From IMG/VR virus record IMGVR_UViG_3300029982_000010, positions 157,903-221,902 of that record: 64,000 nucleotides of DNA; one strand, 5' to 3'. Under the pieces are notes generated by a model. The model was not told the DNA's origin. It was given only the letters and a program-made list of their open reading frames with translations, and made no database searches. The position numbers were made by a program, and so were the translations under genes. Below are positions 108-64,000 of the stretch, one piece after another. Each line of letters opens with the position of its first letter. Position 1 is the first letter of the stretch. The stretch comes from a virus.

Positions 108-842
108 TTAATCATAATATTTTAAAGTGAATTTATTTTTATCATATATAATATATGAACAATTTTCAATCCAATCACCAGTATTTAAATATCTTACATT
201 ATTTATAATTTTATCATCAGGAGTGTGAACATGACCGCAAATTACAGTATCACAACCTTTTTTTATTGTATCTGTTATTAAAATTTCTTCAAATTTGTAT
301 ATAAAATTGATAGCTTCTTTTACATTATTTTTTAACCATTTACTGAAAGATTTTTTATCTAAACCAAATAATTTTCTAATATTACTAATATATTTATTTA
401 AATAAAGAGCGATATCATAACCAATACTACCCAAATGAGCAATCCATTTATTATTCATAACTACAGTATCATATTTATCTCCATGAGTAATTAAACAATT
501 ATTCCATATCATTTCAGATATTATATGAATATTACCAAAATCAAATATATAATGTTTTAAAAAATCATCATGATTTCCTGATATGTAATATATTTCTGTT
601 CCATTTTTTGAATATGATAAAATTTTTCTAATTACATTTGTTTGTTCTTGATTCCAGTAATGCTTCTTTTTTAACGCCCATCCATCAATGATATCTCCTA
701 TTAAAAATAATTTTTTTGGCTTATAATATTTTAATATTTCTAATAATTCAGTAGCTTTTGTATATTTTGTACCAAGATGCACATCTGATATAAAAAGTGC
801 TTCTATTTCCATATTTTTTATTATTATATATTTAATATTCAC
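108..842 (-). CDS. calcineurin-like metallophosphoesterase (LpxH/YaeI-like)
   Basis: 244 aa; metallophosphatase motifs DVHLG, GDIIDGW, GNHD, GHVH in canonical order. Confidence 0.7.
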   Translation of the reverse strand: MNIKYIIIKNMEIEALFISDVHLGTKYTKATELLEILKYYKPKKLFLIGDIIDGWALKKKHYWNQEQTNVIRKILSYSKNGTEIYYISGNHDDFLKHYIFDFGNIHIISEMIWNNCLITHGDKYDTVVMNNKWIAHLGSIGYDIALYLNKYISNIRKLFGLDKKSFSKWLKNNVKEAINFIYKFEEILITDTIKKGCDTVICGHVHTPDDKIINNVRYLNTGDWIENCSYIIYDKNKFTLKYYD

Positions 843-914
843 TATATTATTAGATGATTTACTATTAAAATTATATTAAATTTATGTTATATAACTATTA
901 TATACGCAAAAAAA

Positions 915-934
915 GTGAATGATTAATCATTCAC
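915..934. terminator. perfect hairpin GTGAATGATTAATCATTCAC flanked by A6 and T6 (bidirectional intrinsic-terminator-like)
   Basis: read directly from sequence; lies between gene trains. Confidence 0.45.
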
Positions 935-1180
935 TTTTTATAAATTATTACAGGTATTTATTTCTACTATGGCATAGTTCAGTTCTTTCTTGGATCCCTC
1001 TCTAACTTAGACCTTGTAATCTTTTTAGTCCTGCGCCGAACTTACTAACTTTTTTCAATGGCATCTTAGTTCCACTTCGGTTTACAAATATTATTTCATA
1101 ACCTCACCAAACCTGTTTATCTCTTGTTGTTATTTCACTAAATGAATAACATGAAGTTATAATAAAAATACTCTAATAAT

Positions 1181-1384
1181 TTATTTTTTAATATAATACT
1201 CTAATTTAGAATTATTACATTTTACATGATCAGAATATTCATGCATAAAAATCATGCTAGCACAAAAGAATAAGCATCCAATAATATACATCATTAATCT
1301 ATTTGATTTACCAAGAAATGCAAATCCAAAAAAAATAACAGAAATAATTCCTAAAAATACTGATAATATTAACATTGTACTCAT
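1181..1384 (-). CDS. small membrane protein (2 predicted TM helices)
   Basis: 67 aa, hydrophobic stretches ILSVFLGIISVIFFGFAFL and YIIGCLFFCASMIF. Confidence 0.4.
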   Translation of the reverse strand: MSTMLILSVFLGIISVIFFGFAFLGKSNRLMMYIIGCLFFCASMIFMHEYSDHVKCNNSKLEYYIKK

Positions 1385-1474
1385 AATAATATGATTTAAT
1401 TGTTTAAAAATTTCAAATACAAAGATACCACATATATTTGGTATATGTAGTATCTTAAAAGTTAAATAATAATA

Positions 1475-1873
1475 TTAATAACTAATATGTATTAAAATGC
1501 TATTGTGCACAATTGATTTTTTAAGAATATCAATGAAATGAGTTTCATCTTTATCTGTCCAGTGCTTATTTTTTATAACTTCTTTAATATTTAATATATC
1601 ACTTTCTTTAATTTTAACAATGCAATCATTAAGCTCATTATTTTTAAAATATGATTTTTTATCATTTTTTATTTGACCATATTCACTAATTAAATAAGTT
1701 AGTAATTGGTAATTATTTCTAAGATAATAAATTTCTATTACCTTTTTTTCAAAATCTTCAAATATTATTGAATTTTTTGCTTCATCTTCTGTATAATCAT
1801 TATCTTTATATATAACTGGAGTTATCTCATTATATATATCTTTTGTTTTATAAAATGTTAAATCAAGGCCCAT
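1475..1873 (-). CDS. hypothetical protein
   Basis: 132-aa ORF in co-directional train; no recognisable motif. Confidence 0.4.
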   Translation of the reverse strand: MGLDLTFYKTKDIYNEITPVIYKDNDYTEDEAKNSIIFEDFEKKVIEIYYLRNNYQLLTYLISEYGQIKNDKKSYFKNNELNDCIVKIKESDILNIKEVIKNKHWTDKDETHFIDILKKSIVHNSILIHISY

Positions 1874-1884
1874 AATTATTATTT

Positions 1885-2178
1885 TTATATTTTTCTAACC
1901 ATTAATCCAGTTCCATCTGGTGAATCTACGTTATATATAAGTACAAGATTATGAGATGCTAAATATATAATTAAGTCATCATAATCTTTTTTTGGTACAG
2001 AGTAATGTTTTTGTGGATTCGATTTTGTTCCGTCAATAAACCCTTTCTCATATCCAAATTGCCTACCTTTCTCATATGAATCAGTATCAATTTTATATTT
2101 TTTAAGAATTAATTCTATTTTTTGCTTATGTATTTTTTCGAATATATAATCAATAAATTTCTTTATTTGAGATTTCAT
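1885..2178 (-). CDS. hypothetical protein
   Basis: 97-aa ORF; no recognisable motif. Confidence 0.4.
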   Translation of the reverse strand: MKSQIKKFIDYIFEKIHKQKIELILKKYKIDTDSYEKGRQFGYEKGFIDGTKSNPQKHYSVPKKDYDDLIIYLASHNLVLIYNVDSPDGTGLMVRKI

Positions 2179-61540: not shown

Positions 61541-61875
61541 ATGTTAAATTTATTTGCTTGTAATAATATTTCTAATTCTTCTTTATCTTTAGACCAATAT
61601 TTTATTTCATAATGTTGTGCATAAAATGATAACTTCTTTAAATCTTCTTTATTATATATATCATTCCATTGACCAGGTTCTTGTTCTTTATCTTTATCTT
61701 TATCTTTATCTATATCATATAATATAACATAATAACTATGAAACATTCTATCAATATATCCAATGTTATTATTAATAAAATCTACTTTTTCAGTTCCAGA
61801 AGCAGTTTTGATTATAACATAATCACCAATTTCTGGCTTATCTTTACGCTCACTGAAATGTTTAAGATGCTTCAT
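61537..61875 (-). CDS. Fam-B protein (short subtype, DKDKDKDKE insert)
   Basis: MKHLKHFSERKDKPEIGDYVIIKT...LQANKFNI. Confidence 0.5.
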   Translation of the reverse strand: MKHLKHFSERKDKPEIGDYVIIKTASGTEKVDFINNNIGYIDRMFHSYYVILYDIDKDKDKDKEQEPGQWNDIYNKEDLKKLSFYAQHYEIKYWSKDKEELEILLQANKFNI

Positions 61876-62032
61876 AACATTATATATTTAATTCCAAATA
61901 TCATAAATATTAATCAATATATTATAGTGGAATTTAACAACATAAATATGGTTAAAATAATAATAAAATATAGTGAATTTTCACAAATGTACTATTCTTA
62001 AAATAATATATAATTTTTTTATATATAATAAC

Positions 62033-62320
62033 ATGATAATAAATTTTAAATTATATGAAATGAATGAAGATAAACCTGAAGTAGGTGACTATGTCATTTG
62101 CGATGGTAAATATACATTAAATCCTGAATATAGAGAATTTATAGATACTCATATTGGTAAATTAATACGTATCAATATAAGCATTAAATGTTATGTAATA
62201 GAATATTTTTATCCTAACAGAGGAAGTGAATATACTATTAACTTAGAAGATATAAAATATTGGTCTAAAAATAGAAATGAATTAGAAATAATATTACAAA
62301 CTAATAAATTTAATATATGA
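62033..62320 (+). CDS. Fam-B protein (short subtype)
   Basis: MIINFKLYEMNEDKPEVGDYVICDGK...LQTNKFNI; track ORF extended upstream. Confidence 0.5.
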   Translation: MIINFKLYEMNEDKPEVGDYVICDGKYTLNPEYREFIDTHIGKLIRINISIKCYVIEYFYPNRGSEYTINLEDIKYWSKNRNELEIILQTNKFNI

Positions 62321-62646
62321 TAACAAATTTTAAACTATATGAAATGGATGAAAATAAACCTGAAGTAGGTGACTATGTTATTTGCTCACATTTTCATGAC
62401 AAATTACCAACATATTATGAAAAAGAACAAAATTTTATAGAAAATAAAATAGGTAAAATTATAAACGTTAATTGGAGCAATAGATATCCTTATGCAGTAA
62501 CATATGATAATATTCCAGATGGATTATGGAATGCAAAAATTAATGATGATAAGGTATTATTATTTAGAGATTACGATATTGAACATTTATCCAAAAATAA
62601 AGAAGAATTAGAACAAATTATTAATACAAAAAAGTTCAATCTATAA
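62317..62646 (+). CDS. Fam-B protein (short subtype)
   Basis: MITNFKLYEMDENKPEVGDYVICSHF...INTKKFNL. Confidence 0.5.
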   Translation: MITNFKLYEMDENKPEVGDYVICSHFHDKLPTYYEKEQNFIENKIGKIINVNWSNRYPYAVTYDNIPDGLWNAKINDDKVLLFRDYDIEHLSKNKEELEQIINTKKFNL

Positions 62647-62874
62647 TAGATCGAACTTTTTAAAAATATCGCTCAATGCTCCAATATATTTATATAATAT
62701 ATTTTTTAATGATGAATAAAAACGAAATATATTACAGAAAGAATAAGATAAGCAACAATCGCCCATTTAATGGCATATTTTAGAATTTCTTTTTTGTGTA
62801 ATTTCATTGCGATTTAGTTTTTAATTATTCAACAAAGGTAATCCTTTAATTTTATAAGTCAGATATATAATGTG

Positions 62875-63303
62875 TTAAATATTTTTAAAAATTTTAAATT
62901 TAGGATCATTTTTTTCAGAACCATCTTGATTAAAATAACTCGGAATATATTTCTTTAAATTTTTATCTGTTGAAATTATATCTTTTATCATTAATTGTAT
63001 ATCATCATGATTACCTATATAATTACCTATATAATTATCAGCAATAAATTTCCAAATATGATCATAATCGCATAATAAATATTCATATACTCTTGTATGT
63101 ACTATTTTAAATAAGCATATTCCTTTAACTTTATCTGGTAGAGTAATTTCTTGATTACTTATTTTACATAACTTAATCTTTCTAATATATTGTTCATCAT
63201 AAAAAAAATATATATTATCTGGATAATTATCATTCTTAACTTGATAACAAGAATTAAATATAGTCCAAAACCATGTATACAATTCAATTTTATTCATATT
63301 CAA
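62875..63303 (-). CDS. Fam-C protein with internal KL-tail motif
   Basis: [50 protein letters not shown]. Confidence 0.45.
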
Positions 63304-63863
63304 TTAATCTTATAAAAATAACTTCTCTTAGGTTTATAATCGGATAATCTATTGAAATTATTAAAATTATTTAGTGAAGTTTTTAAAGGAGTATATAAAC
63401 TTAATTTAATATCCTCATTTATTATTATTTTATTAGATTCTGATATAATATCTGATGCTAAATCATTTAATATGATACAATTAGATATTTCTAAATCTCT
63501 ATTTTTATTAGTCCATTCCATTTGTGATGTTAACTTATTTAATTTTACGCAATCAAATATTATATCATTTATTAAATTTTGAACGCCACGATAACTCATA
63601 ATGTAATTATTTTCAAAAAATGACCAAATTTTTTCATAATCACACCATAAATATTTATATGTTAAATCCTGTTCAAATAAACAAATACCGTTAACTTTAT
63701 TAGGTAAAGTAATTTTAATATTATTTAATTTAGATAGTTTACATTTTCTAATATATTTTTCATCATAAAACCAGAATATACTTTTAGGATATAGATTATT
63801 TACAACTGGATAGCATGAATTAAACTTATCATAAAAACATTCACTTAATTCTTCTTTTGTCAT
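63300..63863 (-). CDS. Fam-C protein (paralog of 62875..63303)
   Basis: [50 protein letters not shown]. Confidence 0.45.
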
Positions 63864-63874
63864 AATATATTTAA

Positions 63875-64000
63875 TATGAGTATCCGCTTGGATACCTTAA
63901 ATATTGTTTTTGTAACTTACACAAGCAATTAGTAACCTGTCAAATAATTTGTCTCCAAAATACCGCCTATTATACTTATAACAAAACTCATTTAAGTAAC
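63875..64000. mobile_element. MITE copy 3 (left end only; runs off window)
   Basis: TATGAGTATCCGCTTGGATACC then ~70 nt near-identical to interior start of copy 2. Confidence 0.5.

What the first reader, a model, noticed from the sequence alone, without database searches (positions are those of the whole stretch)
108..64000. Chimeric bacterial-like and eukaryote-like signals; host domain unresolved
Bacterial or phage-like: genes overlap by 1-25 nt in operon-like trains, hairpin+T-run terminators, an HNH domain, a PspC domain, and two lipobox-like signal peptides (LFSC, FLSC at 16863..17622). Eukaryote- or archaea-like: a PTH2-type (not bacterial Pth) hydrolase, MVP, a J-domain protein, no visible Shine-Dalgarno sequences, tRNA genes without encoded CCA. 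A Bacteroidota-infecting jumbo phage (no SD use) or an unusual NCLDV would both fit.
Basis: inference. Interest (0 to 1): 0.5.

Follow-up and report, generated by a model that had tools for sequence, protein, structure and literature searches.

The report
Huge Bacteroidota-type phage, not a chimera
This 64-kb window is a piece of a very large (at least 347 kb) AT-rich bacteriophage genome whose promoters, start sites and lipoproteins are of the Bacteroidota type, so its "eukaryote-like" traits are features of that host phylum or misreadings, not signs of a giant eukaryotic virus.

Summary
The window has 21% GC and about 159 small genes at 87% coding density. 43% of same-strand neighbours overlap. 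It has no Shine-Dalgarno sequences and carries hairpin+T-run terminators, two lipobox lipoproteins, PspC, HNH, a J-domain, an MVP-like protein and a CCA-less tRNA. PTH2 was not found.

The Bacteroidota -7 promoter box TAnnTTTG is enriched upstream of genes (14 observed against 4.1±2.1 expected, 0 of 200 shuffles). A at -3 is the Bacteroidota substitute for SD. The sigma-70 consensus and the mimivirus AAAATTGA motif are not enriched.

The MVP-like gene has more than 6000 environmental homologues at over 50% identity, on contigs up to 531 kb. These include the published huge-phage genomes LR756500 and LR756501 (735 kb, Mahaphage clade, predicted Bacteroidetes host). Identical window proteins occur on contigs of 221,902 and 346,561 bp. 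A syntenic sister contig carries T4-type baseplate/tail-fibre proteins. Capsid, terminase and portal genes were not reached.

Verdict: a new member of a known kind, of modest interest. One side finding deserves follow-up: 30% of the window's proteins, from unrelated families, end in one conserved helical tag, RKxKLxx(L/I).

The parts
108..842 (-). Calcineurin-like metallophosphoesterase. With the GT2 glycosyltransferase just left of the window it forms a two-gene module.
   Evidence: Pfam Metallophos E 4.8e-11. The GT2 neighbour is seen in L010. The pair is conserved in 57 IMG/VR loci, next to UvsX-like, DnaB-like, PolB and RNR genes.
2796..3218 (-). Possible Tpt1/KptA-like RNA 2'-phosphotransferase (weak match).
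   Evidence: Pfam PTS_2-RNA E 1.3e-3, 19.3 bits against a cut-off of 26.
5141..5761 (-). NadD-like nucleotidyltransferase.
   Evidence: Pfam CTP_transf_like E 4.8e-15. 29% identical to an ORF near the MVP-like gene in LR756500 and LR756501.
8638..8835 (-). Small PspC-domain membrane protein.
   Evidence: Pfam PspC E 3.7e-11 (coordinates mapped).
9248..9525 (-). Cluster of three tRNA-like elements with normal T-arms but aberrant or interrupted anticodon arms.
   Evidence: Rfam tRNA 41.4 bits for 9248-9340, with 27 nt in place of the anticodon loop. ARAGORN fits them only with non-canonical 'introns'. Sequence.
10271..10972 (-). Second metallophosphoesterase.
   Evidence: Pfam Metallophos E 7.4e-12.
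15485..15501 (-). Bacteroidota-type promoter (-7 box TATCTTTG inside TTTTTATTATCTTTGTA), 60 nt upstream of gene 14307-15434.
15844..16332 (+). Phage T4 gp30.3-family protein.
   Evidence: Pfam Phage_30_3 E 1.9e-28; phrog_652 E 4e-26. Also present near the MVP-like gene in the 501-kb relative L180.
16863..17622 (-). Two predicted lipoproteins with lipobox cysteines (LFSC, FLSC).
   Evidence: Translations. Lipobox processing is a bacterial function (established knowledge).
19499..20521 (-). Phage-type RNA ligase (PHA02142 OB-fold plus ligase domain).
   Evidence: Pfam PHA02142 E 1.1e-35 and RNA_ligase E 9e-19; phrog_968 E 1.5e-73. 37-42% identical to RNA ligases of many cultured phages.
21332..21883 (-). 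NMNAT-like cytidylyltransferase.
   Evidence: Pfam CTP_transf_like E 4.8e-8; phrog_395 and phrog_3462.
22960..25008 (-). Tandem array of SH3-like small proteins that end in the RKxKLxx(L/I) helix. A second array lies at 43053-45114 (+). The window holds 24 members.
   Evidence: Clustering; alignment A1. AF2 model has pLDDT 85.6, a beta-barrel and a C-terminal helix at 67-84. Weak SH3 fold matches. 355 environmental homologues only.
27682..27753 (-). tRNA with anticodon CUA (amber suppressor) and no encoded CCA, followed by a terminator hairpin at 27622-27647.
   Evidence: ARAGORN; Rfam 55.2 bits; sequence; terminator.
29356..29880 (-). LOG/SLOG-family protein.
   Evidence: Pfam Lysine_decarbox E 7.6e-13 and LDcluster4 E 3.6e-12.
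37988..39445 (+). TnpB (IS605 OrfB / Cas12f-like TNB) transposon-associated nuclease.
   Evidence: Pfam OrfB_IS605 E 8.8e-10 and Cas12f1-like_TNB E 8.7e-10. No hit at the matching place in the sister contig L007. Nearest genome hits are Firmicutes at 45-47% identity.
39988..40033 (+). Terminator hairpin plus T-run that runs directly into a Bacteroidota promoter (TTTTTATTATCTTTGTA).
45353..45380 (.). Bidirectional terminator (12-bp stem with T-runs on both strands) between convergent gene blocks.
45647..45693 (-). Terminator hairpin followed by a promoter (TTTTTATTACTTTTGTA), downstream of the MVP-like gene.
45732..48185 (-). MVP-like protein (vault repeats, band-7-like shoulder, long cap helix). 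It is a conserved core gene of this huge-phage group.
   Evidence: Pfam; PDB MVP E about 1e-16 over aa 327-748. 6179 homologues, the best 120 all at least 51% identical, on contigs up to 531 kb. 48-52% identical to LR756500 and LR756501. The AF2 model has low overall confidence but shows the shoulder and a 118-aa helix. No PHROG match.
50768..51208 (-). Small J-domain protein with an HPD motif.
   Evidence: Pfam DnaJ E 4.2e-12; sequence.
52156..53103 (-). HNH endonuclease fused to an RNA ligase. Absent from the syntenic sister contigs, so probably a mobile insertion.
   Evidence: Pfam RNA_ligase E 5.7e-26 and HNH E 0.003; phrog_24030 E 1.5e-100 and HNH PHROGs. Missing between the flanking homologues in L006 and L009. 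39-45% identical to ORFs of jumbo phages.
54440..62646 (.). Array of at least 15 paralogous small proteins that start MK(I/V)(K/N)RFNE and end (S/T)NKFN(I/L). The gene junction is conserved at the DNA level.
   Evidence: The array continues in the sister contig, where the same termini flank LRR and other domains, and a similar N-terminus heads an ORF with an ankyrin-like sequence.

Best explanation
The window is an accessory/early-type region of a huge tailed bacteriophage (a 'megaphage'). The genome is at least 347 kb and is related to the Mahaphage group of Al-Shayeb et al. 2020. It replicates in a member of the Bacteroidota.

Genes are packed into long co-directional trains with overlapping or abutting stop and start codons (shown). 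Host RNA polymerase with the Bacteroidota primary sigma factor would start at TAnnTTTG -7 boxes and stop at hairpin+T-run terminators (sites shown, use inferred). Host ribosomes would initiate without Shine-Dalgarno pairing on A-rich, G-poor leaders with A at -3 (context shown, mechanism taken from the Bacteroidota literature).

The cargo is typical of huge phages:
- An RNA-repair and NAD set: two RNA ligases, two phosphoesterases, a possible Tpt1, and NadD/NMNAT.
- A suppressor tRNA, a TnpB, lipoproteins and small membrane proteins.
- Large arrays of fast-diverging small paralogues.
- A highly conserved MVP-like protein.

The 'eukaryote-like' signals are either Bacteroidota biology, widely distributed domains, or (PTH2) absent.
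For: 1. Host-type expression signals. TAnnTTTG within 120 nt upstream of genes, in sense orientation: 14 observed against 4.1±2.1, with 0 of 200 shuffles reaching 14. Over whole intergenic regions: 19 against 8.0±2.7. The top de novo 8-mer in upstream DNA is TATCTTTG(T), 6 observed against 0.7 expected. Close relatives show the same enrichment. The sigma-70 consensus is not enriched, 231 against 236. There is no SD, and A at -3 is the strongest position at 0.70. This matches the published Bacteroidetes rules: TTTG/TAnnTTTG promoters, no SD, A-3 (PMC6847099).

2. Prokaryotic gene organisation. 2.5 genes per kb, 63 of 148 neighbour pairs overlapping and 24 ATGA overlaps; intrinsic terminators; two lipobox lipoproteins.

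3. Phage families. T4 gp30.3, PHA02142 RNA ligase, phrog_968, 24030, 839, 4243, 16527, 395 and 3462, and HNH.

4. Relatives. The MVP-like gene and the HNH-RNA-ligase lie together in the best hit, LR756500 (462 kb). The MVP-like gene also hits LR756501 (735,411 bp). The 735-kb genome is the largest Mahaphage and is predicted to infect Bacteroidetes (PMC7162821). MVP homologues sit on contigs of 286-531 kb.

5. Genome size. Identical window proteins occur on contigs of 221,902 bp and 346,561 bp.

6. Tail genes in a sister genome. The contig IMGVR_UViG_3300030339_000011 is syntenic with window 40-56 kb at 40-90% amino-acid identity. Further along it encodes several 600-800-aa fibre proteins. Their N-termini match the T4-type gp9/gp10 baseplate-wedge tail-fibre connector: phrog_677 E 1.8e-9, and 59-69% identity to cyanomyovirus gp9/gp10. 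One also carries a Fib_succ_major domain, E 6e-18.

7. The mimivirus early motif AAAATTGA is not enriched, 30 against 31.5.
Against: - No major capsid protein, terminase or portal gene was reached, either for this genome or for its sister contigs. 'Tailed phage' therefore rests on fibre and baseplate matches in a sister genome, on phage accessory families and on relatives.
- The link to LR756500 and LR756501 is only 2-3 genes in the stretches examined.
- LR756500's MVP region shows no TAnnTTTG enrichment.
- The nearest cellular relatives of the TnpB found were Firmicutes at 45-47% identity. At that distance this says little.
- No CRISPR-spacer or tRNA-based host link could be made.
- 21% GC is far below that of known Bacteroidota.
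Confidence: 0.85

Rival explanations
1. A huge phage, but of a host outside the Bacteroidota (another low-SD or AT-rich lineage, e.g. Firmicutes or another FCB-group phylum). The TAnnTTTG sites would then be a by-product of AT-rich intergenic DNA or phage-specific promoters.
For: TnpB's nearest genome hits are Firmicutes. No spacer or tRNA host link exists. LR756500's sampled region lacks the motif. The motif is also raised in antisense orientation, 8 against 4.1 expected.
Against: The motif is the top de novo hit, is oriented, and usually lies 19-60 nt before start codons, often straight after a terminator. Complete absence of SD with A at -3 is the Bacteroidota pattern. Firmicutes use strong SD (established knowledge). 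The relatives' predicted host is Bacteroidetes. A Fib_succ_major domain sits in a sister-contig fibre.
Confidence: 0.1
2. An unusual giant virus of eukaryotes (Nucleocytoviricota) that has picked up bacterial and phage genes.
For: Extreme AT content, many paralogous small ORFs, an MVP-like protein, a J-domain, no SD and a TnpB/Fanzor-like gene all also occur in giant viruses (own knowledge). Hallmark genes were not seen either way.
Against: 43% of neighbours overlap, with ATGA coupling. Bacteroidota promoters and rho-independent terminators are present. Lipobox lipoproteins. No AAAATTGA enrichment. The nearest relatives are published phages. T4-type baseplate fibre connectors occur in the syntenic sister contig. 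Ten or more PHROG families match.
Confidence: 0.02
3. Not a virus: a megaplasmid or other giant extrachromosomal element, or part of a reduced AT-rich bacterial genome.
For: No capsid or packaging genes were seen in 64 kb. Two MVP homologues carry MAG labels (Lokiarchaeota, Paceibacterota) in NCBI.
Against: There are no housekeeping, ribosomal or conjugation genes. Gene content is phage accessory families. Relatives are in IMG/VR and in curated phage genomes. Tail-fibre and virion-structural matches occur in the sister contig. The MAG labels are most simply binning artefacts (inference).
Confidence: 0.03

Closest known systems
Mahaphage-clade huge phages (Al-Shayeb et al. 2020, Nature 578:425), e.g. 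LR756501 (735 kb) and LR756500 (462 kb), and the related Lak megaphages
   Same: - Shares the MVP-like protein (48-52% identity), an HNH-RNA-ligase next to it (LR756500) and a NadD-like gene nearby.
- Genome is well over 200 kb.
- Very low GC and no SD use.
- Bacteroidetes-type host.
- Suppressor tRNA(CUA), as in the TAG-recoded Lak phages.
   Different: - Only 2-3 of about 159 window genes are shared with the stretches examined.
- The local genes fit the standard code.
- Clade membership as defined by terminase and capsid trees could not be tested.
- The tagged small-protein families are specific to this lineage (absent from L016, L017 and L180).
Environmental sister genome IMGVR_UViG_3300030339_000011 / 3300028864_000014 (105 and 235 kb) and IMGVR_UViG_3300029983_000009 (168 kb)
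   Same: Collinear with window 40-56 kb. MVP is 90% identical and other genes 40-87%. It has the same paralogue families and the same C-terminal tag (43% of ORFs in L007).
   Different: It is a different species-level lineage. It lacks the HNH-RNA-ligase insertion and shows no TnpB at the matching place.
Eukaryotic and bacterial major vault proteins
   Same: The shoulder (band-7-like) domain, at least one vault repeat and a long cap helix are all present. E about 1e-16 to rat and human MVP over aa 327-748. Bacterial MVPs of Cytophagales and Myxococcales also carry a band-7-like domain.
   Different: The N-terminal 330 aa match vault repeats only weakly. The gene sits in a phage genome. Assembly into a vault-like shell is untested. 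The family has no PHROG.
Nucleocytoviricota (giant viruses, e.g. Mimiviridae)
   Same: AT-rich, many paralogues and large gene content.
   Different: Gene overlaps and operon trains, Bacteroidota promoters, intrinsic terminators and lipoboxes are present. There is no mimivirus promoter motif, the relatives are phages, and a sister contig has T4-type baseplate fibre connectors.

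Membership tests
Huge tailed phage (Caudoviricetes), Mahaphage-like | Large terminase subunit and HK97-fold major capsid protein that place within the clade | not testable with these tools
   Neither gene lies in the window. DNA of the 221,902-bp and 346,561-bp contigs could not be fetched. A walk of about 40 kb on sister contigs did not reach them.
Huge tailed phage (Caudoviricetes), Mahaphage-like | Genome larger than 200 kb | tested here: met
   Exact window proteins occur on contigs of 221,902 bp (MVP-like) and 346,561 bp (gene 24372-24608).
Huge tailed phage (Caudoviricetes), Mahaphage-like | Tail or baseplate structural genes | tested here: inconclusive
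   None in the window. In the syntenic sister contig, fibre proteins carry a gp9/gp10-type baseplate connector N-terminus (phrog_677 E 1.8e-9; tblastn) and there is a phrog_8510 virion structural protein match.
Huge tailed phage (Caudoviricetes), Mahaphage-like | Shared proteins and synteny with curated clade members | tested here: met
   The MVP-like gene (48-52% identity) lies with an HNH-RNA ligase and a NadD-like gene in LR756500, and with a NadD-like gene in LR756501. Only 2-3 genes are shared, so this is a weak form of the criterion.
Bacteroidota host expression system | Promoter -7 box TAnnTTTG (TAHHTTTG) upstream of genes | tested here: met
   14 against 4.1±2.1, 0 of 200 shuffles. TATCTTTG 6 against 0.7. 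All the boxes listed have no G at the two variable positions.
Bacteroidota host expression system | No Shine-Dalgarno; A-rich leader with A at -3 | tested here: met
   rule from PMC6847099.
Bacteroidota host expression system | -33 element TTTG at 19-21 nt spacing | tested here: inconclusive
   2 sites at 19-nt spacing against 0.9 expected. The literature itself finds this element weak.
Nucleocytoviricota | Core genes (double-jelly-roll MCP, A32 ATPase, VLTF3, multisubunit RNAP, PolB/D5) | tested here: not met
   No Pfam match to any of them among the 159 window ORFs. The rest of the genome was not seen.
Nucleocytoviricota | Mimivirus-type early promoter AAAATTGA; separately transcribed genes | tested here: not met
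   30 against 31.5 expected. 43% of neighbours overlap.
Major vault protein family | MVP shoulder domain and vault repeat domains | tested here: met
   MVP_shoulder 101 bits (cut-off 25) and Vault_3 36.4 bits (cut-off 28.8). PDB MVP E about 1e-16.
Major vault protein family | Assembly into a closed multi-subunit vault shell | not testable with these tools
   Only a monomer model of low confidence (pLDDT 57.6) is available. It shows the shoulder and a 118-aa helix.
PTH2 peptidyl-tRNA hydrolase | Match to the PTH2 domain (Pfam PF01981) | tested here: not met
   No hit at E <= 0.01 in any ORF.
TAG-recoded (code 15-like) phage, as in Lak | Suppressor tRNA(CUA) together with in-frame TAG in conserved genes | tested here: inconclusive
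   The tRNA is present. The window's genes fit code 11, and TAG recoding gains little. TAG ends 19 of 159 genes. In 3 of 8 paralogue tails TAG sits where the others have Gln.

The most novel reading that the evidence does not exclude
About a third of the small proteins in this lineage come from at least ten unrelated families (SH3-like, transmembrane, zinc-ribbon, coiled-coil). All carry one conserved C-terminal helix, (Y/I)RKxKLxx(L/I). A second set carries matched MK(Y/I)IK(K/R)F(E/N)...KFN(I/L) termini around SH3-like domains and, in the sister contig, LRR domains. The most novel reading is that these are address tags. They would send a large, fast-evolving effector repertoire to a common destination or partner, for example packaging into the virion for injection, or loading into a shell built by the conserved MVP-like protein, in the way cargo-loading peptides work for encapsulins and the INT domain works for vaults.
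Probability: 0.12. Interest if true: 0.75.

Novelty: new member of a known kind. Interest (0 to 1): 0.35.

Why it matters
The host-domain question that the finding raised is largely answered. The sequence is a huge phage with Bacteroidota-type expression signals, not a new kind of chimeric virus.

It adds a very AT-rich lineage (21% GC, at least 347 kb) to the huge phages. It shows that host phylum can be read directly from promoter boxes and start-site context even when hallmark genes are out of reach.

Two by-products may matter more than the classification:
- An MVP-like protein appears to be a strongly conserved core gene across thousands of huge-phage-sized contigs. I found no description of it in phages in the searched literature, although vault proteins have been noted in Borgs.
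- A large share of the small ORFs carry common terminal tags, which hints at a shared targeting or interaction system.

Tried and rejected
- Alternative genetic codes. Recoding TAG or TGA lengthens ORFs only as chance would. The standard code was kept.
- Mimivirus promoter: not enriched.
- Sigma-70 consensus: not enriched.
- PTH2. Pfam on all ORFs, tblastn with a remembered Pth2 sequence, and a permissive Pfam scan of ten unannotated ORFs all found nothing.
- The window's own large contigs. The look-up of encoding contigs on four window proteins returned only short contigs.
- The single metagenome-contig scan did not contain this population; the best hit was 67% identical.
- Leftward jump on the 168-kb sister contig, using the metallophosphoesterase and GT2 as queries. 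This found only distant relatives. Those relatives did show the module sitting among T4-like replication genes.
- TnpB as a host marker in genome contigs gave only 45-47% hits, in Firmicutes. This is uninformative.
- Rightward walk on sister contigs. It gave paralogue arrays, LRR proteins, fibre proteins and large unannotated ORFs. There were no PHROG, Pfam or PDB matches to capsid, terminase or portal.
- PHROG annotation of large ORFs beside the MVP-like gene in LR756500 and LR756501 found no structural hallmark.
- The AF2 model of the MVP-like protein was too poor overall (pLDDT 57.6) to justify a fold search.

Full report
**What is in the window**

The 64-kb window has 21% GC with strand-consistent skews. 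About 159 ATG-initiated ORFs of 45 aa or more cover 87% of it, nearly all in a few long co-directional trains. The standard bacterial code fits. Treating TAG or TGA as sense lengthens ORFs only as much as chance read-through would. Genes are very small, about 2.5 per kb.

Most of them hold.

- Of 148 same-strand neighbour pairs, 63 overlap, 24 of them by ATGA, and another 37 are 0-10 nt apart.
- A custom scan for hairpins of 7 bp or more followed by a T-run finds 41 sites against 26±5.5 in dinucleotide shuffles. The long-stem examples sit in the 13% of the sequence that is intergenic, at 914-935, 27622-27647, 39988-40017, 45353-45380 (bidirectional, between convergent blocks), 45663-45693 and 56960-56987.
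- Pfam confirms PspC (8638-8835), a J-domain (50768-51208; an HPD motif is visible in the translation), an MVP-like protein (45732-48185) and an HNH-RNA-ligase fusion (52156-53103).
- The two lipobox signal peptides at 16863-17622 can be read directly from the translations.
- Shine-Dalgarno motifs are absent. G is depleted to 1-10% at positions -20 to -1, and the leader is A-rich with its maximum (0.70) at -3.
- The one canonical tRNA (27682-27753, anticodon CUA) lacks an encoded CCA.

Two items do not hold.

- No PTH2 domain is detectable. The nearest candidate is a sub-threshold Tpt1/KptA match at 2796-3218.
- The other 'tRNAs' at 9248-9525 are aberrant tRNA-like elements with good T-arms but disrupted anticodon arms.

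**Which domain does the host belong to?**

Three lines of evidence inside the window point to a bacterium, and specifically to the Bacteroidota.

First, promoters. The most over-represented 8-mer in sense-oriented upstream intergenic DNA is TATCTTTG(T), seen 6 times against 0.7 expected. The general Bacteroidota -7 box TAnnTTTG occurs 19 times against 8.0±2.7 in shuffles of the same regions. Restricted to the 120 nt nearest each gene, the count is 14 against 4.1±2.1, and none of 200 shuffles reaches it. Several sites form a fixed cassette in which a terminator hairpin and T-run are followed by ATTATCTTTGTA, 19-60 nt before a start codon. Every box listed has a non-G base at the two variable positions, which fits the refined TAHHTTTG consensus (PMC6847099). 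The E. coli-type sigma-70 consensus is not enriched, 231 against 236. Neither is the mimivirus early motif AAAATTGA, 30 against 31.5.

Second, translation signals. Missing SD together with A at -3 is the documented initiation context of Bacteroidetes.

Third, gene organisation. Overlapping operon trains, intrinsic terminators and lipobox lipoproteins are bacterial features.

Close relatives show the same promoter enrichment (L178, L007, L180 and L182).

**Is it a phage?**

Window proteins match prokaryotic-virus families:

- T4 gp30.3 (Pfam E 1.9e-28; phrog_652).
- A PHA02142-type RNA ligase (phrog_968, E 1.5e-73).
- A second RNA ligase (phrog_24030, E 1.5e-100) fused to an HNH endonuclease.
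- phrog_839 (twice), 4243, 16527, and 395 and 3462.

tblastn against 50,697 phage records gives as best hits the un-annotated 'uncultured phage' genomes LR756500 (462,018 bp) and LR756501/LR756503 (735,411 bp). The MVP-like protein is 48-52% identical in both. LR756500 also has an HNH-RNA-ligase homologue beside it, and both have a NadD-like gene nearby. The length of LR756501 matches the 735-kb genome of Al-Shayeb et al. 2020. That genome belongs to their Mahaphage clade, which contains the Lak megaphages, and all genomes larger than 634 kb were predicted to infect Bacteroidetes (PMC7162821). The equation of LR756501 with that genome is my inference from its length and its ENA deposition.

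The MVP-like protein has 6179 database homologues below E 1e-5. The best 120 are all at least 51% identical over the full length and lie on contigs of up to 531 kb. A 74%-identical copy sits in a 501-kb contig beside another gp30.3 gene, a CHAP domain and an intein-bearing gene.

Exact copies of window proteins are recorded on contigs of 221,902 bp and 346,561 bp. The genome is therefore at least 347 kb.

The metallophosphoesterase at the left edge pairs with a GT2 glycosyltransferase just outside the window. This pair recurs in 57 IMG/VR loci among UvsX-like recombinase, DnaB-like helicase, family-B polymerase and RNR genes.

**Structural genes**

None lie in the window, and the DNA of the large contigs could not be fetched. 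I therefore walked along IMG/VR sister contigs. These are collinear with window 40-56 kb, with MVP at 90% identity and other genes at 40-87%.

Beyond the equivalent of the window's right end, the paralogue array continues. After it come LRR proteins, and then several 600-800-aa fibre proteins. The first 35-37 residues of these fibre proteins match the gp9/gp10 'baseplate wedge tail fibre connector' of T4-like cyanomyoviruses: phrog_677 E 1.8e-9, and 59-69% identity by tblastn, with further hits in the 636-kb LR756504 and in jumbo phage PAU. One fibre protein carries a Fib_succ_major domain, E 6e-18. By my own knowledge this is a paralogous family typical of Fibrobacter and Bacteroidota. A neighbouring ORF matches phrog_8510, a virion structural protein.

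Capsid, terminase and portal genes were not reached. This is the main gap in the argument.

**The 'eukaryote-like' items, one by one**

- MVP. It is a true but distant MVP homologue, matching shoulder, a vault repeat and cap helix of rat and human MVP at E about 1e-16 over aa 327-748. The AF2 model has low overall confidence but shows the shoulder and a 118-residue helix. MVP homologues with a band-7-like domain are known in Cytophagales and Myxococcales (bioRxiv 10.1101/872010). Here the gene is a conserved component of a huge-phage group.
- J-domain. J-domains are universal in bacteria and occur in phages (own knowledge).
- PTH2. Absent.
- No SD. Normal for Bacteroidota.
- No encoded CCA. 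Common in bacteria and phages (own knowledge).

Nothing remains that calls for a eukaryotic or archaeal host.

**Functional picture (inferred)**

This looks like an early or accessory region. It holds an RNA-repair and NAD set: two RNA ligases, two metallophosphoesterases, a possible Tpt1, and NadD and NMNAT-like enzymes. Such sets are usually read as counter-measures to host tRNA-cleaving defences. It also holds a suppressor tRNA, a TnpB element whose nearest genome relatives are only 45-47% identical, lipoproteins and small membrane proteins, and very large arrays of diverging small paralogues.

**Side findings**

(a) A shared C-terminal tag. 48 of 159 proteins carry [RK]x.[KR]Lxx[LI] within their last 22 residues. 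Shuffled tails give 1.4, the N-termini give none, and internal sequence gives 0.007 per 22 aa.

- The carriers include a 24-member SH3-like family and at least ten other unrelated families, among them transmembrane and zinc-ribbon proteins.
- The conserved Leu is encoded by both codon families (TTA 20, CTT 14, CTA 4, CTC 3, TTG 2), and the motif ends 1-12 residues before the stop. Selection therefore acts on the peptide, not on a DNA element.
- AF2 places the motif in a confident C-terminal helix that follows an SH3-like barrel (pLDDT 85.6).
- The tag is shared with the close sister contigs (43% of ORFs in L007). It is absent around the MVP-like gene in the 501-kb relative and in LR756500 and LR756501.
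- The SH3-like family has only 355 homologues among 5.8 billion proteins. None carries an informative name (the few named are 'hypothetical protein'), and they lie on contigs up to 711 kb.

(b) A second family with matched termini. The family at 54440-62646 begins MKIKRFNE and ends NKFNI. Its gene junction AAATTTAACATATGAAGATAAAAAGATTTAATGAA is conserved at the DNA level. In the sister contig the same termini flank LRR domains and other small proteins, and a similar N-terminus heads an ORF with an ankyrin-like sequence. This suggests cassette-like exchange of variable cores between constant ends.

(c) TAG at Gln positions. In three of eight paralogue tails, TAG sits where the others have Gln. 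Together with the tRNA(CUA), this is a lead towards partial Lak-like TAG-to-Gln reading. The window itself does not require it.

(d) A common assembly break. Several independent assemblies end about 150 nt beyond gene 63300-63863, so a repeat or a genome end lies just past the window.

**Verdict**

The finding is a fair description of real features, apart from PTH2. Its open question is largely resolved: this is a huge phage of a Bacteroidota-type host and a new member of a known kind. It is neither a chimera nor an NCLDV. Confidence is about 0.85 overall. It is higher that this is a phage of a bacterium and somewhat lower for the phylum. Interest in the classification itself is modest. The terminal-tag system and the conserved MVP-like gene are the parts worth a dedicated follow-up.

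Noticed in passing
window-wide; e.g. 22960-25008, 43053-45114, 49031-50097, 42214-42598, 26382-27549: 48 of 159 proteins, from at least ten unrelated families, end in the same helical motif (Y/I)RKxKLxx(L/I), against 1.4 expected. Codon usage at the conserved Leu shows selection on the peptide. AF2 puts the motif in a confident C-terminal helix. It is shared with the close sister contigs but not with more distant relatives. Function unknown; possibly a targeting or docking tag.
   Followed up: partly
window 54440-62646; L178 1-10000; L187 2600-9600; L198 400-5550: A tandem family has constant MK(I/Y)IK(R/K)F(N/E) starts and (S/A)NKFN(I/L) ends, and a gene junction conserved at the DNA level. 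In the sister contig the same termini flank LRR domains and other small proteins, and a similar N-terminus heads an ORF with an ankyrin-like sequence. This looks like variable cores exchanged between constant ends.
   Followed up: partly
window 45732-48185: The MVP-like protein is very strongly conserved: more than 6000 homologues, with the best 120 at least 51% identical over the full length, on contigs up to 531 kb. It has no PHROG family, and I found no description of it in phages in the searched literature. It looks like a core gene of this huge-phage group.
   Followed up: partly
window 27682-27753; paralogue tails at 24372-24384, 44236-44260, 44460-44484: An amber-suppressor tRNA(CUA) sits in a region that otherwise fits the standard code. 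In 3 of 8 paralogue tails of the form ...CS(N/K)-Q-EI(K/E), TAG replaces the Gln codon. This hints at partial TAG-to-Gln reading, as in the Lak phages.
   Followed up: partly
window 9248-9525 (- strand): Three tRNA-like elements have canonical T-arms and acceptor stems but disrupted anticodon arms. Two of them share the insert AAGCCAAAAAAGC. They may be pseudo-tRNAs, unusually interrupted tRNAs or decoys.
   Followed up: partly
window 52156-53103 and 37988-39445: The HNH-RNA-ligase gene is missing between its conserved neighbours in the sister contigs L006 and L009. The TnpB gene has no counterpart at the matching end of L007. Both look like recent mobile insertions.
   Followed up: partly
about 150 nt beyond window 63863 (L012, L013, L015): Independent assemblies from different samples all end at the same point just past the window's right edge. 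This suggests a repeat boundary or a genome terminus.
   Followed up: no
window 108-842 plus the GT2 gene just left of the window (L010 2514-3239): A metallophosphoesterase + GT2 glycosyltransferase pair is conserved, at 40-56% identity, in 57 IMG/VR loci of 27-45% GC. It usually lies among UvsX-like, DnaB-like, PolB, RNR and DNA ligase genes.
   Followed up: partly
window 2796-3218, 19499-20521, 52156-53103, 108-842, 10271-10972, 5141-5761, 21332-21883: An RNA-repair and NAD toolkit is scattered through the window: two RNA ligases, two phosphoesterases, a possible Tpt1/KptA, and NadD and NMNAT-like enzymes. It is consistent with a counter-defence against host tRNA nucleases.
   Followed up: no
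L198 5638-8037; L222 8888-9874 (sister contigs): Tail-fibre-like proteins carry a Fib_succ_major domain and long NSIGSNF-type repeats, and exist in many paralogous copies per genome. The domain is typical of Fibrobacter and Bacteroidota proteins (own knowledge).
   Followed up: partly
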